Below the pieces are notes generated by a model. That model made no database searches. It saw nothing but the letters and a program-made list of their open reading frames with translations, and was not told the DNA's origin. A program made the translations under genes and the position numbers. Below are positions 30,117 through 52,509 of a stretch of DNA of 64,000 nt, in pieces; within the stretch, counting starts at the first letter, position 1; each line of letters starts with the position of its first letter. Source of the stretch: Candidatus Woesearchaeota archaeon (GTDB taxonomy: Archaea; Nanobdellota; Nanobdellia; UBA10117; JABICX01); contig JABHLG010000009.1 in assembly GCA_018692915.1 (NCBI GenBank), forward strand, positions 9,332 to 73,331, read 5' to 3'.

Positions 30117-31903
30117 TATTCTATCTTAACAAAACCTCCTTCACTTTTTATGAAATTATCAATATTAAATTCCTTAAGTGGTAATTTTATGATGTGTCCT
30201 GCGTTAAAGTATTTTTGAAAAGAATAACTAACATTATTATTATCAAACAAAGATTTTGAGTATCTACTGAAATTTAATCTACGAACCTTAGAATCTTTAT
30301 CATAAAAATAATTAGCAATAGTTTCTTTCTGACAATCTCGCAATCCTAATCTAATATAATCTACATCAAGATTATCCATATAATCTCTAGTTGCTTGAAG
30401 AATTATTTCTATATCTTTTAAATTCACATTACCTTCTAAAAGAATATCAAAAGCTTCTTTTAAACCAACTAAAGATAAAGAATACAAACTATCATCTAAA
30501 TGAATATATTTAATTTTCTTAAACAAATATCTGCTCTGAATTGAATTGACTAATTCATAAGAATATTTCAAAACTTCGACAGATTCTTTAATAATTTTAA
30601 ACAACTCTTCTTTAAACAGTTGCAAATTCTTAGTTCTAGCAGCAATACGAGGAGCATTAATTGCAATATTTTGTATGTCACCTACGCGAACTGTTCGCAT
30701 CCAATATTTCCAATTAGCATCTAAACGGGAGTTTTTTAAATAAACTACATTAGATGTCTGCCATTTTGGAATTAAATTCGCAATATAAGATTTCGGTATA
30801 AACAATAAATCATTTTTAGGTTCAGTCCATAGTTTATATACTAAAGATATATTATTTGTTTTTATTTTCTTAAATATATTAAGAATTATATCTGTATTAA
30901 TACCAACATATTTTTCTAAATTCATTAGATTTGGTGGTAAGAAATTTACTTCTAATTCTTTTTGAATAAAACGAGGAGTGCCCATATCTAACCCTAAAAA
31001 TATTTCAACACCAATTGCATCTAAATTTTTAATAAACTTTTCAAGTTCAGATACAATCTTACGCTCATCTAAAATAGATGTATATTTAGAAATAAAATAA
31101 TTAAAAGAATCTAATGCTTGTTCTTTAATACCTAAATTTGCTAGTTTTTTAACCATATTTGTAACTTCCATTAAGTAATCTGGAAGATTAGAAACATTAT
31201 TGAACAAAGCTATTGCATTTAAGTCATGTGAAAAATTAGATACTTTTGGTTTTCCTAAATTCTCAATAAAAATATCTCCATTAATGTGCATATCTAAACC
31301 ATATGGATAACGCAATTTTAAATAATTAAAAAAAGTTTGTATCTTAGCACGAGATTTTTCTATGTTTATTAATGCGCTATTAATTGAATTCACTCTATTT
31401 TGTATTGCAATTTCAAATATTGCTCTAAATTCAATAAGAGATGTTCTTTCACGTATTTGATTTTGAATAGAATTTAATCCAATTTCTATTGTATTTTTAG
31501 GAATGCCTCCATCTAAGTAAGGTTTAGCAAATTTGATTTTATCAAAACGTTCTAGCTTACCATGGTCAGTAATTATATGAAAATCAGATAGTTCACTATC
31601 TTCGTGCTCTATTTTATCACCCTTAAGTATCTTAGATATATTAGATGGATTTATATTAATATAAAAATCTTGGATATAGAACATTCGCTTTAAGCGATTC
31701 TCATGTTCTTGTTTTGAACGAACAAAGCCAGTACGTTCAAGTTGCTCTAAATATTTGTGTGCTGTTGAAAATTTTAAATTAAGTTGCTTAGATATATCTG
31801 TGATTGATTTTGCTCCAGTTTCAGTTAGCAATGCAAGTATTCTTAACTTTACTTCATTGTCAAGCACTTTCAGTTGCTCAATTACTTTCGTGTTTTGAAC
31901 CAT
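30116..31903 (-). CDS. wHTH (ArsR-like) domain fused to a large (about 500 aa) uncharacterised domain
   Basis: The N-terminus LKVLDNEVKLRILALLTETGAKSITDISKQLNLKFSTAHKYLEQLERTGFVRSK is a winged-helix HTH. The remainder has no recognisable motif. It is translationally coupled to the HprK-like gene. Confidence 0.6.
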   Translation of the reverse strand: MVQNTKVIEQLKVLDNEVKLRILALLTETGAKSITDISKQLNLKFSTAHKYLEQLERTGFVRSKQEHENRLKRMFYIQDFYININPSNISKILKGDKIEHEDSELSDFHIITDHGKLERFDKIKFAKPYLDGGIPKNTIEIGLNSIQNQIRERTSLIEFRAIFEIAIQNRVNSINSALINIEKSRAKIQTFFNYLKLRYPYGLDMHINGDIFIENLGKPKVSNFSHDLNAIALFNNVSNLPDYLMEVTNMVKKLANLGIKEQALDSFNYFISKYTSILDERKIVSELEKFIKNLDAIGVEIFLGLDMGTPRFIQKELEVNFLPPNLMNLEKYVGINTDIILNIFKKIKTNNISLVYKLWTEPKNDLLFIPKSYIANLIPKWQTSNVVYLKNSRLDANWKYWMRTVRVGDIQNIAINAPRIAARTKNLQLFKEELFKIIKESVEVLKYSYELVNSIQSRYLFKKIKYIHLDDSLYSLSLVGLKEAFDILLEGNVNLKDIEIILQATRDYMDNLDVDYIRLGLRDCQKETIANYFYDKDSKVRRLNFSRYSKSLFDNNNVSYSFQKYFNAGHIIKLPLKEFNIDNFIKSEGGFVKIE

Positions 31904-32028: not shown

Positions 32029-32565
32029 ATGCGATCAGGGATAAGAGCAATTGATATAGGAAATAGAAAAGTAATTTCAGTTAAACCAAGAACTAAGCTA
32101 ACTTCTGTAGCTAAAAAAATGGCTAAAAAAAGAATTGGGGGATTACCTGTAGTTTACAAAAAGAAATTAGTTGGTATTATCACAGAAAGAGATATTATAA
32201 ACAAAGTTGTTGCTAAAGGTAAAACTGCTAAAGGAATGCGAGTAGAAGATGTAATGACTTCGCCAGTAAAAGTTTATGCTGAAAAACATGATGATTTAAC
32301 ACACATAGCTAAAAAAATGGTTAAGCATGATGTATCAAGAATACCAATAGTTCACGAAGAAAAACTTATTGGATTTATAACAAACAAAGATATTGCACGC
32401 GAATCGCCTGTTTTAATTAATGTTCTTTTAGAAAGACTAAAAGTTTCTAATCCAGAATTTAAATTCCAACCAAGTTCTTTTGGAGAATGTGAAGTTTGTG
32501 GCCAGCCAGGTCATCTTGGTTTTAATCAAAATAAATTCTTATGTGAACTCTGCTCAGATAAATAA
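32029..32565 (+). CDS. CBS-domain pair protein with C-terminal zinc ribbon
   Basis: Two CBS repeats (GGLPVVYKKKLVGIITERDI ... SRIPIVHEEKLIGFITNKDI), then CEVCGQPGH ... CELCSDK. Confidence 0.75.
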   Translation: MRSGIRAIDIGNRKVISVKPRTKLTSVAKKMAKKRIGGLPVVYKKKLVGIITERDIINKVVAKGKTAKGMRVEDVMTSPVKVYAEKHDDLTHIAKKMVKHDVSRIPIVHEEKLIGFITNKDIARESPVLINVLLERLKVSNPEFKFQPSSFGECEVCGQPGHLGFNQNKFLCELCSDK

Positions 32566-32614: not shown

Positions 32615-33400
32615 ATGGATGAAGAATCACCACAGTCACTAACTTTTCCAGAGTATATAAAAGTAAGAGAAGTATTTCTAAAAGATCAAGAAGCGTTAAA
32701 AACAAGAATTAAAGATTTAGAATTAGATGCACAGTTTAAACGTGCAGAAAAACAAGCTAAATGGGAAAAATTCTCAAAATTAGAACGTAGTTTATTGGAT
32801 ATTATTCAAACAACTGACTTAAAACATATATTTAATGAACTAAATGCGCTTGGCTATACATCTACAAGTCAAAAATTAGAATATAACGAAGATGGTCTTA
32901 CAGATTACACAATTATATTAGAATGTGCTGGTCGTGCAATTAATGATAATATTGAATTTAAGGCAGTTACAGATACAAATTATGCTCAACCACCAAATAT
33001 ATTTGAAGAAGTGCGAACACAATGGAAAAAAATTCCTGTGCCTGCCAGAGCAGTATCTGGAGCAATTATACTTCAAGGTAATTTAGATAATCAAGGAAAA
33101 AGTTCTGGCATATATTGTTGCTTAACTATAGATTCATCAGGGATACAGGACTATTTAAACCTTAAAAGAAAAAGATGTCTCTTCTTTTTTGAAGATATAA
33201 ATTCAGATATATCTGTAGAAGAAGCTAGTTCTAAAACAGCATTTATTCCTGAAGATAAAATTAATGATTTAGATTATATAAAACCTATAATTAACCTGTT
33301 AGATTCATTTATTGATGATGCTGCACAAGGAAAAAGTCCTATTTTTGTTGGAGAAAATATGTATGGTGGTAAACCAACTAAAGCAGGTATTAAATTATAA
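32615..33400 (+). CDS. hypothetical protein (261 aa)
   Basis: ORF track entry. Confidence 0.5.
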   Translation: MDEESPQSLTFPEYIKVREVFLKDQEALKTRIKDLELDAQFKRAEKQAKWEKFSKLERSLLDIIQTTDLKHIFNELNALGYTSTSQKLEYNEDGLTDYTIILECAGRAINDNIEFKAVTDTNYAQPPNIFEEVRTQWKKIPVPARAVSGAIILQGNLDNQGKSSGIYCCLTIDSSGIQDYLNLKRKRCLFFFEDINSDISVEEASSKTAFIPEDKINDLDYIKPIINLLDSFIDDAAQGKSPIFVGENMYGGKPTKAGIKL

Positions 33401-34196
33401 GTAAACTAATTAAATTTCTCATTCCTTCTGCTAAACCTAATACAGCTATTGAAATAAGCAAGAAGTTTCTCAATTGTTTGTCTTCTATTTCAGTAGATAT
33501 TACATAAATAGCGGGAATTATAACAACCATTTTTAGTGGAATAAAACTAAATGCGCCAAAGCGCTCTATGAAAAATCTTGGTAGTGGGTGTTTTTCCCAG
33601 CCTCCAACAAAAAATAATATCATAGATGTAGCTGTTGCATCTAGCAAGTGTGCAGTAAATGCTGCATAACCAATCTTATCTGTAATCCATGTCCATTTAA
33701 GTTTTGTAAATACAAAATAAAACGCTACTGCAAGTGAAACAATTGTAAATACAATTCCTAAAAACAATCCTATGTTTTCAAAACTAATTTTTGTGATATT
33801 AATTGCAATGAGATTTACTAAAACAATAATTCCAATTAAATTAGTAATACTATACCAAGGATACTTTGTTTTATGTCCAATCATCAGACCAAATACTAAA
33901 CCAAGTAAGAAAATAAAGGTAGTTAGCAAATAAATTCCCGGAGATACTGTCCAAAAGTTCCTAATCATATATCCTGAGTCAATAAATGCTCTAAGTGTTG
34001 AACCAAACAAAATAAATGGAAGTGTGGATAGTAAAAACTTGAAATCAATTTTTACTTTAAACTTTCTAAGAATTATAAAAATAGTATAAAGCAAAGCAAG
34101 TGCAACAACTGCATATGTAATTGTATTTACAAAATTATAACCTTGTTCTACTCTAATAGGTGATAAAAAATATTTATCTATAAAATTTATTTTCAT
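33390..34196 (-). CDS. polytopic membrane protein (possibly the archaeal DUF63 family)
   Basis: Seven to eight predicted TM helices. The family assignment is from memory only. Confidence 0.5.
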   Translation of the reverse strand: MKINFIDKYFLSPIRVEQGYNFVNTITYAVVALALLYTIFIILRKFKVKIDFKFLLSTLPFILFGSTLRAFIDSGYMIRNFWTVSPGIYLLTTFIFLLGLVFGLMIGHKTKYPWYSITNLIGIIVLVNLIAINITKISFENIGLFLGIVFTIVSLAVAFYFVFTKLKWTWITDKIGYAAFTAHLLDATATSMILFFVGGWEKHPLPRFFIERFGAFSFIPLKMVVIIPAIYVISTEIEDKQLRNFLLISIAVLGLAEGMRNLISLLII

Positions 34197-34524
34197 TTCG
34201 AGACCGCATATACATAAAAAGCCCTATTTGAGATAGGACAGTAATTACTAAAAGTGATGTTAAATAATTTTTAGGAGGCATACCTGCAATTGCAGAGCTT
34301 GTGATTTGGTTCTTAGGATATTTTGAATCATCTAATGGATTTGTTCCTAATTCTACTTCTACGCCATCTGAAAAACCATCTTTATCTGTATCCATATCAT
34401 TAATTCCTGTGCCTAACTCTTGTTCTGATAAATCCTCTAATCCATCATTATCTGTATCAATTGCATAAGCAGAACTAATTATGAAAGTTAATACTAAAAA
34501 CATAATTATAATTTTAAATTTCAT
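34174..34524 (-). CDS. secreted protein with DxDxDG calcium-binding-like repeats and a C-terminal TM anchor
   Basis: Signal peptide MKFKIIIMFLVLTFIISSAYA. Repeats DTDNDGLEDLSEQELGT and DTDKDGFSDGVEVELGT (thrombospondin type 3 / EF-like). C-terminal TM helix followed by RSRNENKFYR. Confidence 0.5.
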   Translation of the reverse strand: MKFKIIIMFLVLTFIISSAYAIDTDNDGLEDLSEQELGTGINDMDTDKDGFSDGVEVELGTNPLDDSKYPKNQITSSAIAGMPPKNYLTSLLVITVLSQIGLFMYMRSRNENKFYR

Positions 34525-35115: not shown

Positions 35116-36600
35116 ATGAGTAAGTATGAAATAATTATGGGGTCATATCAAGGTAGTGTTGAAAAATACTATTTCTTAGCTCTCGAACTGCTCGGAGAGT
35201 TTGGTTTTAAGTCAATCAAGACAAATGATACATTTACATCAAGTATAACTTCTTCATTCTGGGGCTCAATTGAACAACGGAGAACCTTACAACAAGAAAA
35301 AGCATCACAATTCCTTGCGACAATTGGCAACATGATTAAAACTATGTTTCAAATAATTAGGTCTTTACGAATTATGGACGAAAAGATGAAATATTATACT
35401 GAAGCTAAAAAAGGGCCTGACCGAAAATCTGCGGAAATTGCATTAAAAGGAATTTGGATTGATATGGTTGAAGGAGGAGGTAAGAATCCTAGTTCTATTT
35501 ATGGATTAGCAACACAAGTTGGATTTACTACACTTCCAGATTTATTCTTTGATATCTGTCCAAGAGATTCTACTGATTTAAACAAAAAAATGAATGAATT
35601 AAACAAAAGTGGAATAAACAAAAAAATAACTGAAGTTCTTAGAAGAAAACTTTTCCAATATATGGAATGGAGAGATAAAACTGATGAAGAAATTAAAACA
35701 AGTAGAAGATTCCACCTTGCTTATCTTAGACAGCACTTTAACACAATTCGAATGTATTTAAGTTGGGTCAAACCTTATTTGAAAAATGTAAATAGATTAA
35801 AACAACATGGCTCAAGACAAGAACATTTACTAGAAATGGCAGATACTGCAATATCTGATATTGAATTATTTTCTTATCCTGAAAATTTTAAAAAATATAA
35901 AAAATATGTTCCAATAATAACAACTAATTTTGAATACACAACAGTTCCTGAATTATCTTATCAACAAGAATACCAGCGAGGACCAATTCACGTTGGACGA
36001 ACGCGCATGGTAATCGAAGGAAAAGCAATGTTAATTGAAGAAGTACGTGAGAAGTTTAGGCAAGATATGTTAAACGATCTTAACTTACTAAAAGACATGT
36101 TCTCTGCAATGCAAGCACTTGGAGATGATTTAAAGAATTATTTAGAAGAAGCTGAAGAAGAAGACCCTGCAGGTAAACTAGGTAAAAAATTAAAATCTGG
36201 AAAAGCTAAAGCACCTACTGGAATTATTGGTTTATTTGGCCCATTCAAAGATATTGGAAAAGGATTTACAACATTATTTGGTGGATTTACGCGAGGGAAA
36301 AAGAAAGAGTTCAAAAAAACAGTTATAACATATGATTTACCAGAAGACATTGAAAAAATGTGGAAAATAAGACAAGCAACTGTAAAAGAAAAACGAAGTA
36401 GTAGAATGAAATTCAAAATGCGTGAAGATTTTGACGATGATAAATCATTTAAGAAATATTTAGACCTATCTAAAAAACGTAACACAAAAGCAGAAGAAGA
36501 TGAGCTTGCAGCAGTTAAAAAAACTGTAGAAAAAAAAGAAGACATTGTCTGGAAGATTTATGACACATACAAGAAAAGTCTTGGCGTTGTTCGATGGTAA
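35116..36600 (+). CDS. hypothetical protein (494 aa), charged C-terminal third
   Basis: Long clean ORF with no recognised domain. It is divergent from the Q-rich gene. Confidence 0.6.
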   Translation: MSKYEIIMGSYQGSVEKYYFLALELLGEFGFKSIKTNDTFTSSITSSFWGSIEQRRTLQQEKASQFLATIGNMIKTMFQIIRSLRIMDEKMKYYTEAKKGPDRKSAEIALKGIWIDMVEGGGKNPSSIYGLATQVGFTTLPDLFFDICPRDSTDLNKKMNELNKSGINKKITEVLRRKLFQYMEWRDKTDEEIKTSRRFHLAYLRQHFNTIRMYLSWVKPYLKNVNRLKQHGSRQEHLLEMADTAISDIELFSYPENFKKYKKYVPIITTNFEYTTVPELSYQQEYQRGPIHVGRTRMVIEGKAMLIEEVREKFRQDMLNDLNLLKDMFSAMQALGDDLKNYLEEAEEEDPAGKLGKKLKSGKAKAPTGIIGLFGPFKDIGKGFTTLFGGFTRGKKKEFKKTVITYDLPEDIEKMWKIRQATVKEKRSSRMKFKMREDFDDDKSFKKYLDLSKKRNTKAEEDELAAVKKTVEKKEDIVWKIYDTYKKSLGVVRW

Positions 36601-36605
36601 TGAAA

Positions 36606-36629
36606 CTTTCTTTCTTGTAAGAAAGAAAG
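36606..36629 (+). terminator. palindromic hairpin ctttctttctt-gta-agaaagaaag, 6 nt after the stop codon (recurring motif, copy B)
   Basis: Seen directly in the sequence. It sits in terminator position. Confidence 0.45.
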
Positions 36630-36781
36630 AACATAGAGAAAAACTATTTTTAAAATACATTATATAATGCCATTGTCTACGACAATTGCGGAATTGAAAA
36701 TCTATACGAATAACATCTTCAAATTTTCAATAAACAAATAAGGAAAGTTATTTCTATGAGTAATTACTATATAATTATAGC

Positions 36782-37306
36782 ATGACTAAACCAAGTAAGA
36801 ATGCTAAGAAACTTCAGAAGAAGCTAAACGGTAACAACACATCGCAAACTTCAAAAAAGCTTGCGGAGCTGACTACGTCAGAAACAAAAGACACTGAGGA
36901 CACTGAAAAAAAGAACCAAGAGAAAAAAACACAACAATTTATTAATGAAAATCATTTTGAGTTATTTTCTAAATTCACGCAACCAGAACATATAGATATA
37001 ACTAAACTCCTAACTGAATCACCAAACAAATCAGAAGAAACAGAAACATTAGAGCAAACTACTGCACAATTTATTACCCAAGAAGAAAGCGAAAACATTG
37101 TTCAAAACCAATATACAGGTGGTGAAGATTATACTAAATACAATAAACATGAGCATATAGATATAACAAAATATCCTATAAAAGATAAGCAATTAAAACA
37201 ATACAAAACAGAGCTACTTTCATTTAATCCAGTAACTACTGATAGTGAATCTAATTCTCCTGAATCAGATTATAACACTAAAAAACCCAAAGAACAACAC
37301 TACTAA
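36782..37306 (+). CDS. disordered polar protein with two EHIDITK repeats (174 aa)
   Basis: ORF track entry. Low complexity (T/E/K/Q/N). Confidence 0.4.
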   Translation: MTKPSKNAKKLQKKLNGNNTSQTSKKLAELTTSETKDTEDTEKKNQEKKTQQFINENHFELFSKFTQPEHIDITKLLTESPNKSEETETLEQTTAQFITQEESENIVQNQYTGGEDYTKYNKHEHIDITKYPIKDKQLKQYKTELLSFNPVTTDSESNSPESDYNTKKPKEQHY

Positions 37307-37400
37307 TTCCCAAACTTATTTATATATTAAAGAATATATATTCTATTATGATGTTAAAATGTGAAACATTTGAACGGCCCGCTAAAATGGAGGTTTTAGC

Positions 37401-39311
37401 GTGAAATTAAGTCCTACTTATTGGGAAGCAGGAAGAGCAGGTAATGATCAACATATTACTTCTATAGGCAACATCGGAATTGGAACTCATGCAGGAAAAG
37501 ACCAACTCCAAGAATTAAAAGCTAAGATTTTCAAAGGTGCTGGTGCTGTTGAACTTGGTTTTATGGGCCGTGGAAAGGGTGTAAAAGGTCAAGGAAACAC
37601 TACTCCTGGAATGCATGGTAAAGAAGAACGAGAAGCAATGCGCGACCTTGCAAAAGTAAATAAAGTTCGGTTATCAACACATGCGTCAGTTGGTGCAGGT
37701 TCATGGTCAGGTTTTCACGAAAACAAATTTGATGAAAATGCACGAGAACAAAATATTTTCGAAGGTAAACGAGCAATTGAATTTGCAGCAGATGTAGCAG
37801 AGGGCGGACCAATTGTTATTCATACAGGTGAATTTCCAAGAGGTATTACAGAAGTTCCTAATGGTGATGATAACTTTCGAACATTAATAAAAGAAAGTGG
37901 TCAGCAAACTCATTATCTTATGGATAAAAAAACAGGACAGTTAATCACAGCAGTTAGAGAAGACCAAGTAAATTTCGTGCCTGAATATGATGTAACAACA
38001 AATGAAAAAGACCAGTGGGGTAAAGAAATAAAACATATTAAATGGAAAGATAAACCAGGTGGAGAATTTAATATTATTAAACATAATTGGGCACATTATA
38101 AAGAAGAAGCTAAGAAAAATGATAGAGAAGATTATAAAAAATTCCAAAACCCTAACGATAAAAATTATGACCCTTCAAAATCAGCAGATCCATCTATACT
38201 TTTCTATTATGAAAATCTTGAAGCTAAACGATTACAAGCTCAAGGACAAGCAGATGAGTATGAATTAATGTATCGACGGCACGCAGATGATAGAGAAAAA
38301 ATCAAAAAAGCAGTAGATTATTGGGAAAAAAAATGGAAAGAAATACCTAAAGAAGATAGATGGAAACATATGGAAGCAATACCTATCGAAGGTAAAGGAT
38401 TAGTAGAACCACATGTTCGTAACAGACTTGAGCACCTTAAAAGAATGCTTGAAGACACTGAAAAGCAAATGAGTTATGGAAAAGAAGTCGCAGCTAGTTC
38501 ACGTGCTAATGAGCAAGAAATTAAAGACCAGCAAAAGAGAGTTACGTCAATTCCAGATTATGGTTTAAAAAAGACTGCAGATTCTATCGCCACAATGGCT
38601 ATTTATGCTGCTGAAGAACAGCAAAAGAAAAATCTAAAACGTGATATGTTTATAGCTCCTGAAAATATTTTTCCAGAAATGGGTTATGGTTCCCATCCTG
38701 ACGAACTTAAAAAAATTGTTCAAGACTCACGTAAAGAAATGGTTAAAAAACTAACAGATCCATTTATTGAAAGAAATGGTGAAAAAATCAAAAATCCAGA
38801 TTTCCATGCAAACCTTAGTGAAAGTAAAGCAAAAGAAATGGCTGCGCGACACATTAAAGCAACTTTTGATATTGGGCATGCAAATACTTGGCAAAAATAC
38901 TTTAAAGGCAAGCCAAAAGAATTCAAAAAATGGCTTATTGATCAAGTATCTGAACTAAACAAGGAAGGAGTTCTTGGTCACGTGCACGTTACAGATAATT
39001 TTGGTTATTATGATGAGCATTTATCTCCAGGGCAAGGTAATGTTCCTGTTGAGGAGTTTGTTAAGCAATTAAAAAAATCTGGATATAAAGGTCAAATTAC
39101 AGTTGAAACTGCAGAGCAGGACTACAAAGCAATGACTGAAATGTGGAGAACTGTAAACAGTCCCGTTTATAAAATCGGTGGCGGATGGCAAGACTGGGCA
39201 GGTATTGAGCAAGGATACTTTGGTAAAACTCGCTCACCTAATTTCTTATTTGGTCCAATTGCTCCAGACCCAAAAACATGGACTCTTTGGTCAGAAGTCC
39301 CGATGGAATAA
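37401..39311 (+). CDS. xylose-isomerase-like TIM-barrel (sugar phosphate isomerase/epimerase / endonuclease IV superfamily) protein with about 330-aa charged insertion
   Basis: N-terminal barrel half GAVELGFMGRGKG ... RLSTHAS ... IVIHTGE. C-terminal half FDIGHANTW ... GHVHVTDNFGYYDEHLSPGQGNVPVEEFVKQLKKSGYKGQITVE. GTG start with ggagg SD at -12. Confidence 0.6.
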   Translation: MKLSPTYWEAGRAGNDQHITSIGNIGIGTHAGKDQLQELKAKIFKGAGAVELGFMGRGKGVKGQGNTTPGMHGKEEREAMRDLAKVNKVRLSTHASVGAGSWSGFHENKFDENAREQNIFEGKRAIEFAADVAEGGPIVIHTGEFPRGITEVPNGDDNFRTLIKESGQQTHYLMDKKTGQLITAVREDQVNFVPEYDVTTNEKDQWGKEIKHIKWKDKPGGEFNIIKHNWAHYKEEAKKNDREDYKKFQNPNDKNYDPSKSADPSILFYYENLEAKRLQAQGQADEYELMYRRHADDREKIKKAVDYWEKKWKEIPKEDRWKHMEAIPIEGKGLVEPHVRNRLEHLKRMLEDTEKQMSYGKEVAASSRANEQEIKDQQKRVTSIPDYGLKKTADSIATMAIYAAEEQQKKNLKRDMFIAPENIFPEMGYGSHPDELKKIVQDSRKEMVKKLTDPFIERNGEKIKNPDFHANLSESKAKEMAARHIKATFDIGHANTWQKYFKGKPKEFKKWLIDQVSELNKEGVLGHVHVTDNFGYYDEHLSPGQGNVPVEEFVKQLKKSGYKGQITVETAEQDYKAMTEMWRTVNSPVYKIGGGWQDWAGIEQGYFGKTRSPNFLFGPIAPDPKTWTLWSEVPME

Positions 39312-39385
39312 AGAGTAGTTTTGCTAATAGAATATTTTAATTAGGAAGTAGTCACTAAAATATTATATATAATTCAATATATATA

Positions 39386-40219
39386 TTGAATACTATGAAA
39401 TTTAAAGTTAGACATAATAAGGGCCATTTAAATTATAATAAAAAATATCCAAAAAACGAAATAATAATTGCTAGGAAACTAGCAAAGCGACTTTACAAAG
39501 AAATGGGTGAGTTTATTGTTGCTATGTCTTTATTTGGCTCTTCAGCACGTGGCGGGCATAAAAAACATGACATTGATGTATTAGTTATAATTGATGATGT
39601 TCATGTTAAATTAACGCGCGAGCTAATTGAAACATATCGCATAATTCTTGCAAAAGCTGTTTCAAATATAGACCCAAAGCGACTTCATATTCAAACTATG
39701 GCTTGGACATCTTTTTGGGAGTATGTTAGAGTTGGAGACCCTATTGCAATAAACATATTACGAGATAGTATTTCATTAATTGATATTGGATTCTTTGACC
39801 CACTTCAAACACTTTTATTCCAAGGCAGAATAAGACCTAGTGAAGAAAGCATTTGGACATATTTTTCACTAGCACCTACATCATTACACAGTTCAAAAAT
39901 GCACATTAATGCAGCACTTTTAGACCTTTATTGGGCAGCAATTGATGCAGCACATGCTGCTCTTATGAGTATTGGTGAAATTCCACCTAGCCCCGCACAT
40001 GTTTCTGACATGATACAAAAAAAATTAGTTGTGCCTGGATTAGTTCCTGCACGCTGTGCAACTGTAATGAAACACATGTATATTATATCTAAAAAAATCA
40101 CTCACGGTGAATATTCTCATTTAGAAGGTGACGATTATGATAAATACCAGCGCCATGTTCAGAAATTTATAAAAGACATGGAGAAAGTCATTAAACATAA
40201 AATTAATAAGAAATTATAA
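39386..40219 (+). CDS. Pol-beta-type nucleotidyltransferase domain fused to a helical HEPN-like domain (277 aa)
   Basis: LFGSSARGGHKKHDIDVLVIIDD is the GS-x(n)-DxD NTase motif. It is paralogous to the core of the 41299 gene (shared LRD.I.L.D.G.F.P...L..G.I.PS.E.I). Confidence 0.65.
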   Translation: MNTMKFKVRHNKGHLNYNKKYPKNEIIIARKLAKRLYKEMGEFIVAMSLFGSSARGGHKKHDIDVLVIIDDVHVKLTRELIETYRIILAKAVSNIDPKRLHIQTMAWTSFWEYVRVGDPIAINILRDSISLIDIGFFDPLQTLLFQGRIRPSEESIWTYFSLAPTSLHSSKMHINAALLDLYWAAIDAAHAALMSIGEIPPSPAHVSDMIQKKLVVPGLVPARCATVMKHMYIISKKITHGEYSHLEGDDYDKYQRHVQKFIKDMEKVIKHKINKKL

Positions 40220-40227
40220 AATTCCTA

Positions 40228-40250
40228 CGTTGGCCGCAACGTGTGTTGCG
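40228..40250. terminator. GC-rich overlapping hairpins (cgttggccgcaacg / cgcaac-gtgt-gttgcg) between convergent genes
   Basis: Seen directly in the sequence. Candidate bidirectional terminator. Confidence 0.35.
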
Positions 40251-40289
40251 AACCAGGCAGGAACCTTAAGTAAAATTTAGTTAAAAAGT

Positions 40290-41228
40290 CTAAAATAGAC
40301 CTTTTAACATGTTGTTTTGTGCTAACAGAACAGTAGCTTGTGTTACTGCGCCTCTGTTATTGTGTAGCTTTTTACCAGTTAATTGTTTGTATATATCTTT
40401 AATTAAAGTGTGCACAGCTGTTACTTCAGCAGGCTCTTCTCTAATTTCAGAGTCAGCTCTATTCTTAACAACTTTCTGCATGTATCTTCGTGCTTGAGAA
40501 GCTTCTTGCTCATTTTCTTCAATTGAATATGTTCCTTCAGCCATACTTTCTGCAGTGCTATTAAGATCTAAACCTGTTATAGAATCTAAAAGGCTTTGAT
40601 AAGTTGCAAATGTATCTGCATATTCATCAGTATCTGTTGATCCTCTAAGAATCGCTTCTTGTGCAGGTGTAAGTGTAAGATGAGATGCAATTCCAAGTTC
40701 AGTTTGGCCTTTAATCAGGTCAACTAAAACTTCTTGTGTGTGTGTTCCTGTGGCATCGATACCTATTGGATTTCCCATAGTATCTTTTTTAATTAAATCT
40801 TTTGCTCTAACTACATTCATAAAATCATTTTCATAGACTTTACTTGTAAGTTTTCTTGACTGGTCAGAATTATAAATTCTTTCCAATGCTTTTTTTCCGT
40901 CAAATGGCATTTTATTATTCCTCGTTTCTACTAAAGAGTTAATATAATCGTTTAAAAAGCTTTCGGTTTGTTCTAAAAAGTAATTATTTGCTAAATTTTC
41001 ATATCCTGACCATTTTGCGCCAGCTTTTGTTCCAGGCGCGCGAGGAAAACCAAATCGCAGCGATCCATCATTATCTTGTCTAATTATGCTCTCACCATTT
41101 TCGACATCAAAAAACGCTTCACTAAGTAGTTTGTAATGCTCATTTTCATCCTTAGCTCTTGGATGTGGTTTGATCAGCTTATCTTCAATATATATCTTTA
41201 AGTCTGCAGGTAATTCCTTTGAAACCAT
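40290..41228 (-). CDS. hypothetical protein (312 aa)
   Basis: ORF track entry with no recognised domain. It lies between the two NTase paralogues. Confidence 0.55.
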   Translation of the reverse strand: MVSKELPADLKIYIEDKLIKPHPRAKDENEHYKLLSEAFFDVENGESIIRQDNDGSLRFGFPRAPGTKAGAKWSGYENLANNYFLEQTESFLNDYINSLVETRNNKMPFDGKKALERIYNSDQSRKLTSKVYENDFMNVVRAKDLIKKDTMGNPIGIDATGTHTQEVLVDLIKGQTELGIASHLTLTPAQEAILRGSTDTDEYADTFATYQSLLDSITGLDLNSTAESMAEGTYSIEENEQEASQARRYMQKVVKNRADSEIREEPAEVTAVHTLIKDIYKQLTGKKLHNNRGAVTQATVLLAQNNMLKGLF

Positions 41229-41298
41229 TCGATAATAACACCTAAAGACTTAAAAGAGTATCCAAAAGCTTTATATTTATTGTGTTTCAAGATTTATA

Positions 41299-43206
41299 AT
41301 GCCAGAACCAACATACCTACAAAAAGAGCAACCAAAATATCAAAATCAAGATAATTCTTCAAATGTTAAAATTGATGATATAGAACTTTTAAAGAAAAAA
41401 GCAGCTGCACAAGCTGCAAAAAAAGAGCAAGAAAAACGAGAATTTGCAGAAAAAATCAAAGTTTTAATGAGTGACACTGCAAAAAAAGCTACTCCTTTCA
41501 AAAAAGAAATTCTTGGTAAACACAAACAACGACTAATTGGTATTATTATTATGCCTCCAAAAGCAGACAAAAAACTTGAAACAAAGGCAGGCAAGCTTAA
41601 TGATAAATTAGATATTTTATGTTTATTAGAATTTAAAGATATTTCAGATATCAAAAAGAAAATTGAAAAGAAACAAGAAATTGAAAAGAAAATCAAAGAC
41701 CTTGCAAAGAAAAAATTACCTGGTCATGATGTTAATGTTGTATTATTAGATGAAATATGGGATATGTGTCTAAAAGGAAAGCACGACATCCTTAATATTC
41801 TATCAATAGGTATGCCGCTTTACGATAGTGGTTGGATAGGCGCACTTAGAATGACTGAAATCCACAAAATGAAAGTGCTTCAGAAATTTGAAAAATATGT
41901 TATATGTTATGCTCTTGCAGGTTCTATGGTGCGTGGAGATGCTACAGAAACATCTGACGTAGATGGATTTATTGTTATTGATGATACAGATGTAACTCGA
42001 ATGACTTCTGCTGAATTAAAAAATAGACTTATGGGAATTATTTGGGGATATGCTGGAGAAGCTGCTTTAGCTGCAGGTGTTAAAAACAAGTTAGAAGTTC
42101 AAGTTTATGTTCTAAGCGACATGTGGGACTCAATAAAAAACGCTAACCCGGTCATAGTTACATTATTAAGAGATGGAATTCCATTATATGATAGAGGAAT
42201 GTTCACTCCGTGGAAAATGCTTCTTAAGAAAGGTAAAATTAAACCAAGCCCTGAAGCAATTACAAATTATATGAAATCAGGTGGTCAGATACTTGATAGA
42301 ATCAAAGCAAAATTTAAAGAAATGTCTATTGAGGACTTTTTCTGGGCAACATGCACACCGTCTCAAGGTGCACTTATGGTTATGGGTGTAGCACCACCTG
42401 CACACAAAGAAGTTGCTGCAGCACTTAGAGAACACTTTGTAAAAAACGGGTTACTTGAAGACAAATATGTAAAAATGTGGGAACGAATCTTCAAAGTGCG
42501 AAAGGATTTTGAGCACGGACGTAGAAAAGACATTGACGCAAAGGAAATTGCTTCACTTGTAAATGATGTTCAATTATATTTAAAGAGAATTGATAAATTA
42601 TTCATAGAAGTTGAAAAAAGAGTTATTTGTGATGAAATGAAGGTCCTTTACAACAAAACTGTTGAGGATTGCTTAGCTGCAGTTTCAATGGTTGGAAAGA
42701 AAGCTACAAAGAAAGATGTTTTTAAGAAATTCAAAGATGAGCTTGTTGATAAACAACTTGCATCAGAGCGATATAATGACCTTGTTAAAAGAATTGAAGA
42801 ACTAAGCAAATCATGTAAAGCAAGTAGAGAAGAAATTGCTTCACTTAGTTTTGAGCAAGATAAGCAAGCAAGAGATGTTTTTAATTTAATTCGAGCTGAG
42901 CATGGCCAGAAAATTGAGAAATTCAAAGTCTCAGCACAATATAATAAAGGAAAAGACACAGCAGCTATATGGTTATTCACAAAAGATGCTTACATAATTA
43001 GAGATGTATCTGATCCAAACACTGCAATTATGAGTTATAAAATTTCATCTAATGGTTCTTTAACTGATAAAAAAGATGCTAAATTATCTGATGTTGAAAA
43101 GAAACTTCAGACTTTTTCAGGCACACCAACAACAATGACAAAACAAACAATTGATTGTCTTAAAGATATTCTCTCAGATGATGTTAAGATTGTCATTGGA
43201 GCCTAG
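41299..43206 (+). CDS. large nucleotidyltransferase + HEPN-like protein with K/E-rich N-terminus and C-terminal coiled-coil extension (635 aa)
   Basis: ALAGSMVRGDATETSDVDGFIVIDDTD NTase motif. The central region is homologous to the 39386 protein. Confidence 0.65.
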   Translation: MPEPTYLQKEQPKYQNQDNSSNVKIDDIELLKKKAAAQAAKKEQEKREFAEKIKVLMSDTAKKATPFKKEILGKHKQRLIGIIIMPPKADKKLETKAGKLNDKLDILCLLEFKDISDIKKKIEKKQEIEKKIKDLAKKKLPGHDVNVVLLDEIWDMCLKGKHDILNILSIGMPLYDSGWIGALRMTEIHKMKVLQKFEKYVICYALAGSMVRGDATETSDVDGFIVIDDTDVTRMTSAELKNRLMGIIWGYAGEAALAAGVKNKLEVQVYVLSDMWDSIKNANPVIVTLLRDGIPLYDRGMFTPWKMLLKKGKIKPSPEAITNYMKSGGQILDRIKAKFKEMSIEDFFWATCTPSQGALMVMGVAPPAHKEVAAALREHFVKNGLLEDKYVKMWERIFKVRKDFEHGRRKDIDAKEIASLVNDVQLYLKRIDKLFIEVEKRVICDEMKVLYNKTVEDCLAAVSMVGKKATKKDVFKKFKDELVDKQLASERYNDLVKRIEELSKSCKASREEIASLSFEQDKQARDVFNLIRAEHGQKIEKFKVSAQYNKGKDTAAIWLFTKDAYIIRDVSDPNTAIMSYKISSNGSLTDKKDAKLSDVEKKLQTFSGTPTTMTKQTIDCLKDILSDDVKIVIGA

Positions 43207-43239
43207 ATTCCGATAATCTTTTAAACTAGTTTTATTGGT

Positions 43240-43509
43240 TTGATTATAATGAAAGGAATAATAATGAACTATCGTGGTTCACATCATACACAGCGTCCAA
43301 AGCATATGATTCTTCATCCAGAAGGCTCAGCTAGCAAAGCAGATGCTGAAAAATTTGTAGGTAAGAAAGCTACTTGGACAACTAAATCTGATAAGAAAAT
43401 CACAGGTATAATCACAGCACCACATGGTGCAAAAGGCGCTGTTCGTGTTAGATTCGATGAAAAGGGCTTACCAGGTCAATCACTTGGAACTCAAATCGAA
43501 ATTGAATGA
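43240..43509 (+). CDS. rpl35ae: 50S ribosomal protein L35Ae
   Basis: HGAKGAVRVRFDEKGLPGQSLGTQIEI matches the L35Ae C-terminus. The start may be at an internal Met (43249 or 43264). Confidence 0.75.
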   Translation: MIIMKGIIMNYRGSHHTQRPKHMILHPEGSASKADAEKFVGKKATWTTKSDKKITGIITAPHGAKGAVRVRFDEKGLPGQSLGTQIEIE

Positions 43510-43563
43510 TTTTTTCTAGAATCGCAACATATTTAAACAACTTATGTTACTCATAAGTGAATA

Positions 43564-44103
43564 ATGGGAAACTATGTAAGTAATTGTAATGATTGCGCTA
43601 CAAGCTATAGTTGCAAAGGACCTAGTGGATCTGAGAGCTCTTTTCAGACAAGTTACTCTGCTTCTATACAAAATATAGGTGATGATAATGCCAATGTTCA
43701 AATGTCTTATTTAGATCAACAGCAAGAAGGAACAAATGCTTCTGCGAATGTTCAAGTTGATTACCTTAAACCTGAATCACAAGATAAGGACTCACTTCAA
43801 AAAGGGTACTTAATTGGTGAAATAAATAAAAATAAAGAAGATGAAGAAAAAGACAAAGAAAATGTTTTTTTCAAGCACCATGATAGTTTAGGTGAAAAAC
43901 TAACTCAAAAGGAAGATACTAACGCAACAGTTAGTTTTTCAGTTGATTCAACTCAAAGCAATGTTCGAATGGAAGATATATTAAATCCTGATAATAGAGC
44001 AAAACAAATAGTTAATGAACATAACAAACTTGGAGATGCAGTTCAAACAGGTGTTGGAAAAGAATTTAAAGATATCAACACTATCGGCACAAGACTTGAT
44101 TAA
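43564..44103 (+). CDS. hypothetical disordered protein (179 aa)
   Basis: ORF track entry. N-terminus MGNYVSNCNDC, polar and low complexity. Confidence 0.4.
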   Translation: MGNYVSNCNDCATSYSCKGPSGSESSFQTSYSASIQNIGDDNANVQMSYLDQQQEGTNASANVQVDYLKPESQDKDSLQKGYLIGEINKNKEDEEKDKENVFFKHHDSLGEKLTQKEDTNATVSFSVDSTQSNVRMEDILNPDNRAKQIVNEHNKLGDAVQTGVGKEFKDINTIGTRLD

Positions 44104-52370: not shown

Positions 52371-52509
52371 GCTGGGGTACCGAAGTGGTCAAACGGGCAG
52401 GACTTAAGATGAGCCCTTTCTTGTAAGAAAGGTTTCACAGTCCCAAAGAACAAATTATAAGACATCCTGTGGCTTAGTGCCTACGCAGGTTCAAACCCTG
52501 TCCCCAGCA
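52371..52509 (+). tRNA. tRNA-Leu (anticodon UAA) with about 55-nt intron at the canonical 37/38 position (approximately 52410-52464)
   Basis: Acceptor gctgggg/ccccagc, D-arm ccga-agtggtcaa-acgg, anticodon arm cagga-ctTAAga-[intron]-tcctg, a long variable arm (ggcttagtgcctac), T-arm gcagg-ttcaaac-cctgt, discriminator A. No encoded CCA. Confidence 0.75.

What the first reader, a model, noticed from the sequence alone, without database searches (positions are those of the whole stretch)
39386..43206. Two paralogous nucleotidyltransferase + HEPN-like proteins flanking an unknown 312-aa gene
A 277-aa and a 635-aa protein share a Pol-beta NTase core (GS...DxD) plus a conserved helical domain (LRD.I.L.D.G.F.P...L..G.I.PS.E.I). 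They bracket a convergent unknown gene, and GC-rich hairpins sit between them. Fused MNT-HEPN architectures are typical of toxin-antitoxin, defence or nucleotide-signalling systems. The larger paralogue adds a K/E-rich N-terminus and a C-terminal coiled coil. This may be an uncharacterised conflict or regulatory module.
Basis: partly seen in the sequence, partly recalled or inferred. Interest (0 to 1): 0.6.

Follow-up and report, generated by a model that had tools for sequence, protein, structure and literature searches.

The report
Housekeeping nucleotidyltransferase–HEPN paralogues in DPANN archaea
Two related enzymes that look like a fused toxin–antitoxin pair are in fact conserved, vertically inherited core genes of tiny DPANN archaea. 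They sit next to an endonuclease-IV-like enzyme and a ribosomal protein gene, and their function is still unknown.

Summary
Gene A (39395-40219, 274 aa) and gene C (41299-43206, 635 aa) are paralogues (24% identity over 247 aa, E 2e-27). Each has an intact Pol-beta nucleotidyltransferase (NTase) signature (GS..DxD) and a four-helix HEPN-fold domain.

The toxin-antitoxin or defence reading is not supported:
- Both families are conserved across Woese/Pace/Nanoarchaeia; 484 GTDB species genomes encode an A relative.
- They are absent from viral contigs.
- They lie in a syntenic housekeeping block.

A is almost always the last gene of an operon: unknown helical protein, then an Endo IV-like TIM barrel, then A. 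C usually sits beside ribosomal protein L35Ae.

An Aenigmarchaeota locus has one NTase-HEPN-HEPN gene in the same cluster, so A and C are probably ancient tandem duplicates.

C keeps the HEPN RNase motifs (Ex3K, Rx4H); A has lost them. C also carries a dead N-terminal NTase copy and a degenerate second HEPN.

Gene B (312 aa) is a species-specific orphan in a variable slot. There is one GC-rich hairpin, not several, at B's 3' end.

The family was probably already flagged as "MNT fused to HEPN, housekeeping context in DPANN" (Makarova 2019). My best guess at function is nucleic-acid 3'-end processing. That is an inference, not a result.

The parts
39395..40219 (+). Gene A: 274-aa NTase-HEPN fusion. 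The TTG at 39386 is an unlikely start.
   Evidence: ORF list. P0001 is 100% identical over a 274-aa reading, and the search gives 1816 hits. AlphaFold model pLDDT 85.
39536..39577 (+). A catalytic NTase signature G48 S49 x9 D59 x D61. D67 D68 follow at 39593-39598.
   Evidence: G48, S49, D59, D61 and D68 are invariant and D67 is present in 119 of 120 homologues. Coordinates checked.
39752..39847 (+). A superfamily signature linker NILRDxIxLIDxGFFDPLQxLLxxGRIRPSxE, between the NTase and HEPN domains.
   Evidence: Invariant or nearly invariant columns. Shared with C.
39842..40213 (+). A HEPN-fold four-helix domain. The RNase motifs are lost: [F/S]232-K-K-I-x-H237 stands in place of Rx4H, and there is no Ex3K.
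   Evidence: Foldseek 2hsb rmsd 1.7 A. Column counts. hhalign against the C HEPN gives probability 99.6%.
40217..40268 (-). The single GC-rich hairpin followed by a U-tract, immediately after the stop of gene B. Probably a 3'-end or terminator element of B; on the plus strand it folds weakly, after A.
   Evidence: -26.7 kcal/mol, z -5.9 on the minus strand. -17.1 kcal/mol, z -1.9 on the plus strand. Unique in the window. No Rfam match.
40290..41228 (-). Gene B: 312-aa acidic orphan (pI 5.2) in a variable slot. Not a conserved part of the module.
   Evidence: Only itself among 5.8 billion proteins. No Pfam match. GC and GC3 match the neighbours. ORFs in the same slot in relatives show no significant similarity to it.
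41299..43206 (+). Gene C: 635-aa multidomain paralogue of A.
   Evidence: ORF list. 2082 hits, about 600-640 aa throughout. AlphaFold model pLDDT 85.
41374..41523 (+). C N-terminal K/E-rich long helix (aa 26-75). Residues 1-24 are disordered.
   Evidence: Model secondary structure and pLDDT.
41509..41853 (+). C pseudo-NTase module (aa 71-185). It is an internal duplicate of the active module with no GS and no DxD.
   Evidence: hhalign probability 97%, E 1.2e-10 against aa 193-306.
41875..42216 (+). C active NTase module (aa 193-306), with G208 S209 x10 D220 x D222 (41920-41964) and invariant DDTDV (41980-41994).
   Evidence: Pfam. Invariant columns.
42250..42690 (+). C HEPN domain (aa 318-464). 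E378-x3-K382 lies in helix 2 (42430-42444). R401-K-D-F-E-H406 lies at the end of helix 3 (42499-42516).
   Evidence: Foldseek 2hsb rmsd 2.0 A. Profile against AF0298. R 97%, H 78% (Y 16%), E 75%, K 97%. Motif position as described in PMC3710099.
42700..42900 (+). C degenerate second HEPN-like segment (aa 468-534), with a deletion exactly at the Rx4H position.
   Evidence: hhalign probability 93%. Relatives of about 420-440 aa carry a bona fide second HEPN.
42925..43194 (+). C C-terminal alpha/beta domain (aa 543-632), fold unassigned.
   Evidence: Model. No PDB or Pfam match for its profile.
37401..39311 (+). Context: 636-aa Endo IV-like TIM barrel (AP_endonuc_2) with a helical insertion of about 260 aa. 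It is the conserved upstream operon partner of A.
   Evidence: Pfam 68 bits. Directly upstream of A in 65 of 72 loci, median gap 67 nt. Best PDB match is MJ1311, E 1.5e-10. Metal-ligand positions are conserved.
35116..36600 (+). Context: U494, a conserved helical protein of unknown function and first gene of the operon. The non-conserved acidic U174 follows at 36782-37306.
   Evidence: Found upstream of the TIM gene in most loci. Homologue in Aenigmarchaeota, E 2.4e-15. No PDB or Pfam match.
43240..43509 (+). Context: ribosomal protein L35Ae, 33 nt downstream of C. A recurrent neighbour of C.
   Evidence: Pfam. C-L35Ae adjacency in the window's relatives, including inverted copies, and near the single NTase gene in Aenigmarchaeota.

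Best explanation
A and C are ancient tandem paralogues of a DPANN-specific, vertically inherited nucleotidyltransferase-HEPN fusion protein. They belong to a conserved housekeeping gene cluster: helical protein U494, a small acidic protein, an Endo IV-like TIM-barrel metalloenzyme, the NTase-HEPN gene(s), and ribosomal protein L35Ae nearby.

Shown here:
- the paralogy;
- the intact GS..DxD NTase signature in both proteins;
- the HEPN fold in both proteins;
- C keeps the HEPN RNase-type motifs (Ex3K and Rx4H at the end of helix 3), while A has lost both;
- C is built as pseudo-NTase + NTase + HEPN + degenerate HEPN + an unknown C-terminal domain;
- the synteny and the wide, non-mobile distribution.

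Inferred:
- both proteins are active nucleotidyl (probably adenylyl) transferases;
- the HEPN domain of A is a non-catalytic substrate-binding or dimerisation domain, as in kanamycin/streptomycin nucleotidyltransferases and GlnE;
- the HEPN domain of C binds, and possibly cleaves, RNA.

Because the constant partner is an Endo IV-like phosphoesterase, the most economical function is processing or repair of nucleic-acid 3' ends: clean the 3' end, then add nucleotides. This would operate in a translation-related setting. It is not a toxin-antitoxin or defence module. Gene B is a lineage-specific orphan in a variable slot and is not part of the machine.
For: Paralogy.
NTase motifs invariant.
HEPN fold. 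JGI names the relatives 'UPF0332 family'.
Motif status: with the position rule from PMC3710099.
Domain duplication in C.
NTase-HEPN-HEPN relatives, including Aenigmarchaeota.
Distribution: 1816 and 2082 protein hits, 484 species genomes, 866 clusters at 50% identity.
None in viral contigs.
TIM-A adjacency in 65 of 72 loci.
Aenigmarchaeota locus with U494 homologue, AP_endonuc_2 TIM barrel, a single NTase-HEPN-HEPN gene and L35Ae.
TIM barrel closest to MJ1311, a predicted archaeal Endo IV homologue; PMC2770678.
Conserved Endo IV-type ligand positions.
Prior description of a DPANN 'MNT fused to HEPN ... typically in house-keeping context': PMC6393860.
Against: - No biochemical data exist, and no substrate is identified.
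- The third carboxylate typical of Pol-beta NTases is not evident. H98/Q100 in A and N266/Q268 in C occupy that strand.
- The H of Rx4H is Y in 16% of C homologues. The second HEPN of C lacks the motif, so a composite RNase site may not form.
- Distant C homologues (36-41% identity) are not next to A, the TIM gene or L35Ae; instead they are often followed by a CBS-pair gene (25 of 67 loci). That fits a GlnD/DUF294-like regulatory NTase equally well.
- The Endo IV assignment of the TIM barrel rests on motif matching. Only six of the nine ligands are aligned, and the alignment is statistically weak.
- Identity ranks of A and the TIM gene do not correlate (rho 0.13), which is uninformative.
Confidence: 0.55

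Rival explanations
1. Regulatory or metabolic AMPylators. A and C would transfer AMP (or another NMP) to a protein or a small molecule, with the HEPN-like domain acting as the substrate-binding domain. This is how GlnE/GlnD/DrrA/DUF294 work on proteins and how ANT/KNTase/LinB work on sugar-like molecules. The TIM barrel would then be a sugar-type isomerase or epimerase acting on the same metabolite, or simply a co-regulated enzyme.
For: - The best structural matches include DrrA, GlnE, AadA, ANT(9), KNTase and LinB.
- There are weak sequence matches to DrrA, SidM_N and DUF294 and to ANT(9).
- A CBS-pair gene follows distant C homologues in 25 of 67 loci. From my own recollection, not checked here, DUF294 NTases are typically fused to CBS pairs.
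- HEPN domains fused to NTases are usually non-catalytic substrate binders (PMC3710099).
- The TIM profile also weakly hits sugar epimerases (NCBIfam).
Against: - All matches to these families lie far below family cutoffs and cover only the NTase core.
- C keeps Ex3K and Rx4H, which NTase-fused substrate-binding HEPNs normally lose.
- The TIM barrel is closest to MJ1311, a predicted Endo IV homologue, by seven orders of magnitude in E-value. It also conserves Endo IV-type His/Asp positions, which by my recollection single-metal sugar epimerases lack; this was not checked here.
Confidence: 0.25
2. A, B and C form a toxin-antitoxin, defence or nucleotide-signalling conflict module: a fused type VII HepT/MntA-like system in which the NTase neutralises the HEPN RNase by AMPylation.
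For: - The MNT and HEPN folds are those of type VII TA systems (7ae9, 6m6u, 8xeh).
- C has Rx4H.
- There are weak PADLOC PDC-S09/PDC-M05A and HalB/MntA hits on the NTase core.
- Cis auto-AMPylation could still be the regulatory chemistry of a domesticated version.
Against: - The families are conserved, full length and slowly evolving across hundreds of species.
- They sit at a fixed position in housekeeping synteny shared by two DPANN phyla.
- They are absent from viral contigs.
- MntA model scores are 14.9 and 14.6 bits against a cutoff of 60, and HalB scores are 15.7 and 16.8 against 190.
- B is an orphan and absent in close relatives.
- A has lost the RNase motif.
Confidence: 0.07
3. Non-enzymatic scaffold. 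The proteins would be structural or RNA-binding components, for example ribosome- or complex-associated, that retain an NTase-like fold only as a nucleotide-binding module.
For: - The third catalytic carboxylate is not evident.
- C already contains one dead NTase copy and one degenerate HEPN.
- The K/E-rich N-terminal helix and the L35Ae neighbourhood would suit a ribosome-associated factor.
Against: G-S and D-x-D are invariant in 120 of 120 A homologues and 116 of 116 C homologues, together with DD (A) and DDTDV (C). Such invariance is hard to explain without catalysis or at least metal-nucleotide binding.
Confidence: 0.05

Closest known systems
[quoted passage not shown]
   Same: The domain description, the phyletic range (DPANN; 36 of 67 genomes) and the housekeeping context all match. 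Function is unknown in both cases.
   Different: The paper does not describe, in the passages read, any of the following: the two paralogues; the pseudo-NTase and second-HEPN architecture of C; the Endo IV-like/U494 operon; or the L35Ae link.
Type VII toxin-antitoxin HepT/MntA (HEPN/MNT; PDB 7ae9, 6m6u, 7bxo, 8xeh)
   Same: The same two folds are present. The MNT chains of these complexes are the best or near-best structural matches for the NTase part. The GSx9-10DxD motif is shared. C has Rx4H.
   Different: - Here the two domains are fused in one chain, not encoded by two genes.
- Inheritance is vertical and the context is housekeeping, not patchy and mobile.
- The MntA NCBIfam model scores 14.9 and 14.6 bits against a cutoff of 60.
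- A lacks the RNase motif.
- There is no evidence of toxicity.
Two-domain nucleotidyltransferases with a HEPN-like substrate-binding domain: KNTase/ANT(4'), AadA/ANT(3'')(9), ANT(9), LinB
   Same: The single-chain architecture is the same: NTase followed by a helical bundle of about 250-270 aa. Foldseek gives E 1e-4 to 1e-2 at probability 0.93-1.0. ANT(9) is the best NCBIfam hit for A.
   Different: - Scores are far below family cutoffs (24 against 340 bits).
- Domain orientation differs, with rmsd of 16-20 A over both domains.
- Those enzymes are bacterial resistance enzymes.
- C keeps the Rx4H motif that the Aminoglycoside_NT_C family lacks (PMC3710099, Table 1).
GlnE / GlnD / DrrA (SidM) / DUF294 protein-modifying NTases
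   Same: The SD[IL]D-type NTase motif is followed by acidic residues, and the C-terminal domain is HEPN-related. DrrA is the top Foldseek hit and the top PDB profile hit for C. DUF294 and SidM_N hits occur in 19-20 of 71 C homologues. A CBS-pair gene lies next to distant C homologues.
   Different: The E-values are marginal (0.02-0.04). No GlnD_UR_UTase or DUF294_C domain match was found. Those families are bacterial.
Hailong HalB nucleotidyltransferase (PDB 9dbh-j)
   Same: An NTase plus helical domain of similar size. Foldseek E about 1e-4.
   Different: The NCBIfam HalB model scores 15.7 and 16.8 bits against a cutoff of 190. There is no HalA-like partner and no defence context.
Endonuclease IV / MJ1311-type AP_endonuc_2 TIM barrels (for the operon partner)
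   Same: The Pfam AP_endonuc_2 match passes its cutoff. MJ1311 is the best solved relative (E 1.5e-10) and is listed as the predicted Endo IV homologue of M. jannaschii (PMC2770678). The motifs D-x-x-H, H-x-x-D, D-x-H and E align with E. coli Nfo D179/H182, H216, D229/H231 and E261.
   Different: The protein has a helical insertion of about 260 aa and is twice the size of Nfo. The alignment to Nfo is not statistically significant (E 0.11). The three N-terminal ligands are assigned only by strand order and local motif. Activity is untested.

Membership tests
Pol-beta-type nucleotidyltransferase superfamily (Pfam NTP_transf_2, PF01909) | The profile match passes the curated cutoff. | tested here: met
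   A 29.8 bits and C 23.1 bits against a cutoff of 21. All 62 and all 71 aligned homologues match.
Pol-beta-type nucleotidyltransferase superfamily | The hG[GS]x9-13Dh[DE]h motif. | tested here: met
   A: FGS-x9-DID. C: GS-x10-DVD. Invariant in 120 and 116 homologues.
Pol-beta-type nucleotidyltransferase superfamily | A third conserved carboxylate on the neighbouring strand. | tested here: inconclusive
   The strand carries H98/Q100 in A and N266/Q268 in C. No conserved D or E is there, although invariant DD (A) and DDTDV (C) follow the DxD strand. Model coordinates could not be inspected.
HEPN superfamily | A four-helix up-down bundle superposable on a solved HEPN domain. | tested here: met
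   2hsb (AF0298): rmsd 1.7 A over 98 columns with TM(target) 0.69 for A; rmsd 2.0 A over 100 columns with TM(target) 0.68 for C; probability 1.00. The Pfam HEPN model is matched by only a few homologues, but it passes the cutoff in the NTase-HEPN-HEPN relative P0294.
HEPN superfamily, catalytic (RNase) subset | An Rx4-6H motif at the end of helix 3 plus an upstream Ex3[KR] in helix 2. | tested here: met
   Gene C: R401 97%, H406 78% (Y 16%), E378 75% (D 8%), K382 97%. Helix 388-405 is followed by a loop. The rule comes from PMC3710099.
HEPN superfamily, catalytic (RNase) subset | The same motifs, tested in gene A. | tested here: not met
   F or S replaces R at position 232, and K/R/E with no Ex3K occupy the helix-2 positions. 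H237 is kept in 86%.
Type VII toxin-antitoxin HepT/MntA | The MntA antitoxin model (NF047752) passes its cutoff. | tested here: not met
   14.9 bits (A) and 14.6 bits (C) against a cutoff of 60.
Type VII toxin-antitoxin HepT/MntA | Two separate adjacent genes, one toxin and one antitoxin. | tested here: not met
   Both domains lie in one polypeptide in A and in C.
Type VII toxin-antitoxin HepT/MntA | A patchy, mobile distribution typical of TA or defence genes. | tested here: not met
   484 species genomes encode a relative. Synteny is fixed. No relative is found in viral contigs.
Type VII toxin-antitoxin HepT/MntA | Toxicity of the HEPN domain and its neutralisation by AMPylation. | not testable with these tools
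   This needs expression and mass-spectrometry experiments.
Aminoglycoside/lincosamide nucleotidyltransferases (ANT(9), ANT(3''), ANT(4')) | The family model passes its cutoff. | tested here: not met
   ANT_9: 24.4 bits against 340. ANT_3pp_II: 16 against 400. ANT_4p_I: 11.9 against 350.
   No such Pfam or NCBIfam hit at E up to 1. Only sub-threshold generic palm cross-hits appear (MTPAP-like_central, DNA_pol_B_palm).
Hailong HalB | The HalB model (NF051895) passes its cutoff, and a HalA partner is present. | tested here: not met
   15.7 and 16.8 bits against a cutoff of 190. No HalB or other Hailong model reached its cutoff among the six proteins scanned; a HalA partner was not specifically searched for.
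DPANN cluster cls.004259 (NEQ050) | Sequence membership in the cluster. | not testable with these tools
   The NEQ050 sequence and the cluster member list are not available. The description matches.
Endonuclease IV-like TIM barrel (operon partner, 37401-39311) | The AP_endonuc_2 profile passes its cutoff, and the nine trinuclear-metal ligands are conserved. | tested here: inconclusive
   Pfam gives 68.1 bits against a cutoff of 31.1. H94, H141, E421, D490, H493, H529, D538, H540 and E569 are at least 90% conserved. Six of them align to the Nfo ligands, but only at E 0.11. The N-terminal three are assigned by motif only, and hhalign gives another register there. The Nfo ligand list is from my memory of the Endo IV structure literature.

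The most novel reading that the evidence does not exclude
The cluster encodes a DPANN-specific 'cut, clean, extend' RNA 3'-end machine. The HEPN domain (catalytic in C and in the single Aenigmarchaeota protein) would cleave an RNA, leaving a 2',3'-cyclic phosphate. The Endo IV-like TIM barrel would remove the 3' phosphate. The Pol-beta NTase domain would then add nucleotides. U494 would act as a scaffold, and the target would be a translation-related RNA (rRNA or tRNA maturation or repair), as hinted by the conserved rpL35Ae neighbourhood. This would be a new RNA-processing pathway. It would be analogous in logic to Las1-Grc3 or to tRNA restriction-repair systems, but built from a domesticated MNT-HEPN module.
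Probability: 0.15. Interest if true: 0.8.

Novelty: new variant of a known kind. Interest (0 to 1): 0.5.

Why it matters
MNT-HEPN pairs are textbook toxin-antitoxin and defence parts. Here the same parts are fused, duplicated and fixed as core genes in genome-reduced DPANN archaea. That makes this a clear candidate for domestication of a conflict module into housekeeping.

Koonin's group listed what is very probably this family among the top uncharacterised DPANN-specific targets. This analysis adds concrete, testable anatomy:
- an active-looking NTase in both paralogues;
- an RNase-type HEPN only in C;
- a single-chain pseudo-dimer design;
- a constant Endo IV-like partner and an unknown helical partner;
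- a cluster shared by Nanoarchaeota and Aenigmarchaeota.

It also warns defence-system annotators that MNT/HEPN hits in DPANN genomes are likely false positives.

Tried and rejected
- **PDB sequence searches.** Single-sequence searches found nothing for A or C. Profile searches gave only marginal hits.
- **RNA.** Rfam found nothing in 39300-43600. The hairpin sequence is unique in the window.
- **Gene B.** It has no homologue in 5.8 billion proteins, no Pfam, NCBIfam or PADLOC match and no BLAST similarity to ORFs in the same slot. A small profile built from L013/L018/L075 reaches L001 (E 3e-6) but only marginally reaches B (E 0.007 in a set of about 20 sequences). I did not rely on this.
- **U494 and the C-terminal domain of C.** Neither has a PDB or Pfam match.
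- **NEQ050.** I tried to check identity with NEQ050 through the literature and the paper's supplement, without success.
- **Co-inheritance statistics.** The A-TIM identity correlation was uninformative (rho 0.13) because most loci are equally distant.
- **Alignment to E. coli Nfo.** hhalign of the TIM N-terminal half against Nfo gave an unreliable alternative register.
- **CCA-adding enzyme idea.** Rejected, because there is no match to those families and A is too small.
- **Defence-island idea.** Rejected on context and distribution.

Full report
**1. What is there**

The window is a low-GC (about 32%) DPANN archaeal segment. The exact protein of gene A is recorded from 'Candidatus Woesearchaeota archaeon' on contigs up to 496 kb.

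- Gene A: 39386/39395-40219 on the plus strand.
- Gene B: 40290-41228 on the minus strand, 312 aa.
- Gene C: 41299-43206 on the plus strand, 635 aa.

A most likely starts at the ATG at 39395, giving 274 aa. P0001 is a 274-aa protein that is 100% identical over 100% of that reading, and other homologues also start MKF.

A and C are true paralogues, with 24% identity over 247 aa and E 2e-27. Both pass the Pfam NTP_transf_2 threshold.

**2. Domain anatomy**

The AlphaFold models (pLDDT 85 for both) show the following.
- A is an alpha/beta NTase domain (aa 20-130) followed by a four-helix bundle (aa 150-273).
- C has six parts:
  - a K/E-rich helix (aa 26-75);
  - an NTase-like alpha/beta module (aa 79-176);
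  - the Pfam-positive NTase (aa 202-297);
  - a helical bundle (aa 318-464);
  - further helices (aa 474-534);
  - an alpha/beta domain (aa 543-632).

Foldseek against the PDB returns these matches for both proteins:
- MNT antitoxins of type VII TA systems (7ae9, 6m6u, 8xeo).
- HalB.
- The two-domain enzymes AadA, ANT(9), KNTase and LinB.
- DrrA and GlnE, for C only.
- The HEPN protein AF0298 (2hsb) for the helical domain, with rmsd 1.7-2.0 A over about 100 columns and probability 1.00.

A profile of the C family aligns its RKDxEH segment to the R..DY segment of AF0298. The 'NTase plus HEPN-like' description is therefore correct at fold level.

Profile-profile comparison adds two findings:
- C residues 71-185 are an internal duplicate of the active NTase module (probability 97%, E 1.2e-10) that has lost both GS and DxD.
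- C residues 468-534 are a degenerate second HEPN (probability 93%), with a deletion exactly where the Rx4H motif would be.

Relatives of about 420-440 aa are NTase-HEPN-HEPN, and their second HEPN passes the Pfam cutoff (P0294).

**3. Catalytic motifs**

GS..DxD is invariant in 120 A homologues and 116 C homologues. It is followed by an invariant DD in A and DDTDV in C. The usual third carboxylate is not evident: H98/Q100 and N266/Q268 occupy that strand.

For the HEPN domain, Anantharaman et al. (PMC3710099) report three points:
- An Ex3[KR] motif sits in helix 2.
- The motifs are usually lost in HEPN domains fused behind NTases.

C has R401 (97%)-K-D-x-E-H406 (78% H, 16% Y) exactly at the end of helix 388-405. 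It also has E378 (75%)-x3-K382 (97%) in helix 2. A has [F/S]232 in place of the Arg and no Ex3K, though H237 is kept in 86%.

C, and the single Aenigmarchaeota protein with its RKKVEH, therefore look RNase-competent or at least RNA-binding. A does not.

**4. Distribution and context**

Distribution:
- Both families are large and uniform: 1816 and 2082 hits, lengths of about 270 aa and about 600-640 aa, and roughly 50% identity across more than 100 clusters. All named members are Woesearchaeota, Nanoarchaeia or other DPANN.
- 484 GTDB species genomes encode an A relative.
- The whole superfamily comprises only 866 clusters at 50% identity in 1.84 billion proteins.
- No A relative is found in 2.9 million viral contigs.

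Synteny over 84 genome loci:
- The 636-aa AP_endonuc_2 TIM-barrel gene lies directly upstream of A on the same strand in 65 of 72 informative loci. The median gap is 67 nt, and the genes often overlap.
- The unknown helical protein U494 lies upstream of the TIM gene.

A true C gene is adjacent to A only in the window's wider lineage. The A-C gap there ranges from 18 nt (L005) and 38 nt (L014) to about 1 kb. C tends to stay with ribosomal protein L35Ae even when the pair is inverted or moved (L022, L055, L081).

More distant C homologues (36-41% identity) stand apart from A, the TIM gene and L35Ae. A CBS-pair gene follows them in 25 of 67 loci.

The larger block is also conserved in relatives:
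- ABCE1;
- a CBS protein;
- DUF63;
- U494;
- the TIM gene;
- A;
- C;
- L35Ae.

An Aenigmarchaeota locus (L165) carries the following genes in order:
- a U494 homologue (profile E 2.4e-15);
- an AP_endonuc_2 TIM barrel (32.7 bits);
- one 441-aa NTase-HEPN-HEPN gene that is closer to C than to A;
- L35Ae, about 1.4 kb downstream.

The simplest history is one ancestral gene in this cluster, duplicated in tandem in Nanoarchaeia. One copy became a short form that stayed with the TIM operon (A). The other became an elaborated form that stayed with L35Ae (C).

**5. Gene B and the hairpin**

B is a real-looking gene. By my own calculation, a 312-codon ORF at 33% GC has a chance probability of about 3e-11. 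Its GC and GC3 are the same as its neighbours'.

B has no homologue anywhere. The slot between A and C is empty in some relatives. In others it holds ORFs that are mostly minus-strand and often acidic, with no detectable similarity to B. B is therefore not a conserved component.

Only one GC-rich hairpin exists, at 40217-40268. It is strong on the minus strand (z -5.9) and followed by a U-tract, so it lies at B's 3' end. The B/C spacer is an unstructured AT-rich divergent promoter region.

**6. What it most likely does**

Conservation, fixed synteny with core genes in two DPANN phyla, absence from viral contigs, and model scores far below the MntA, HalB and ANT cutoffs all argue against a TA or defence module.

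[quoted passage not shown] This is very probably the same superfamily, though I could not test that by sequence.

For mechanism, the constant partner is informative. The closest solved relative of the TIM barrel is MJ1311 (E 1.5e-10), which is listed as the predicted Endo IV homologue of M. jannaschii (PMC2770678).

Nine His/Asp/Glu positions in the TIM protein are at least 90% conserved. Six of them align with the Zn ligands D179, H182, H216, D229, H231 and E261 of E. coli Nfo. That alignment is statistically weak, and the ligand list is from memory. The other three are matched only by motif and strand order.

An Endo IV-type 3'-phosphoesterase next to a Pol-beta NTase and a HEPN domain suggests nucleic-acid 3'-end processing or repair. 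I rate this specific function at about 0.25. I rate the general statement (housekeeping NTase-HEPN enzymes, not a conflict module) at about 0.8.

The main rival, at 0.25, is a GlnE/DrrA/DUF294- or ANT-like AMPylator of a protein or small molecule. It is supported by the structural neighbours and by the CBS linkage.

**7. Verdict**

The conflict-system interpretation is not supported. The finding is a member of an already flagged but uncharacterised DPANN family, and its anatomy and gene cluster are now better defined. Interest is moderate.

Noticed in passing
window 52371-52509 (+): A tRNA gene of 139 nt, so it contains a long intron. Rfam finds it (RF00005, 44.4 bits) but ARAGORN misses it.
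   Followed up: no
window 35116-39311 (+): A conserved operon upstream of gene A. It comprises the unknown helical protein U494, the non-conserved acidic U174, and a 636-aa Endo IV-like TIM barrel split by a helical insertion of about 260 aa. U494 has no Pfam or PDB match, yet it has a homologue in Aenigmarchaeota.
   Followed up: partly
window 32029-32565 (+); metagenome loci L098-L164: A CBS-pair protein lies in the syntenic block upstream. In distant lineages a CBS-pair gene directly follows the C homologue on the same strand (25 of 67 loci). By my recollection this resembles CBS-fused DUF294 nucleotidyltransferases.
   Followed up: partly
window 30116-31903 (-): A 595-aa protein with an N-terminal winged-helix domain (MarR/IclR-like) and a weak match to anaerobic ribonucleotide reductase NrdD (E 2e-5). 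This is an unusual combination.
   Followed up: no
window 34174-34524 (-): A 116-aa protein with a bacterial thrombospondin type 3 (calcium-binding) repeat, sitting next to the DUF63 membrane protein gene (33390-34196).
   Followed up: no
window 43240-43509 (+): The ribosomal protein L35Ae ORF is listed from a TTG. An in-frame ATG a few codons downstream (MKGIIMNYRG...) looks like the more likely start. The gene lies only 33 nt after the stop of C.
   Followed up: no
L165 9575-10390 (-): The gene called between the Aenigmarchaeota NTase gene and L35Ae translates to poly-valine low complexity. It is probably a false gene call.
   Followed up: no
L013, L018, L075, L001 (slot between A and C): The minus-strand acidic ORFs in this slot form a fast-evolving family in some lineages (35-70% identity; the profile reaches L001 at E 3e-6). 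Gene B matches that profile only marginally (E 0.007 in a tiny set).
   Followed up: partly
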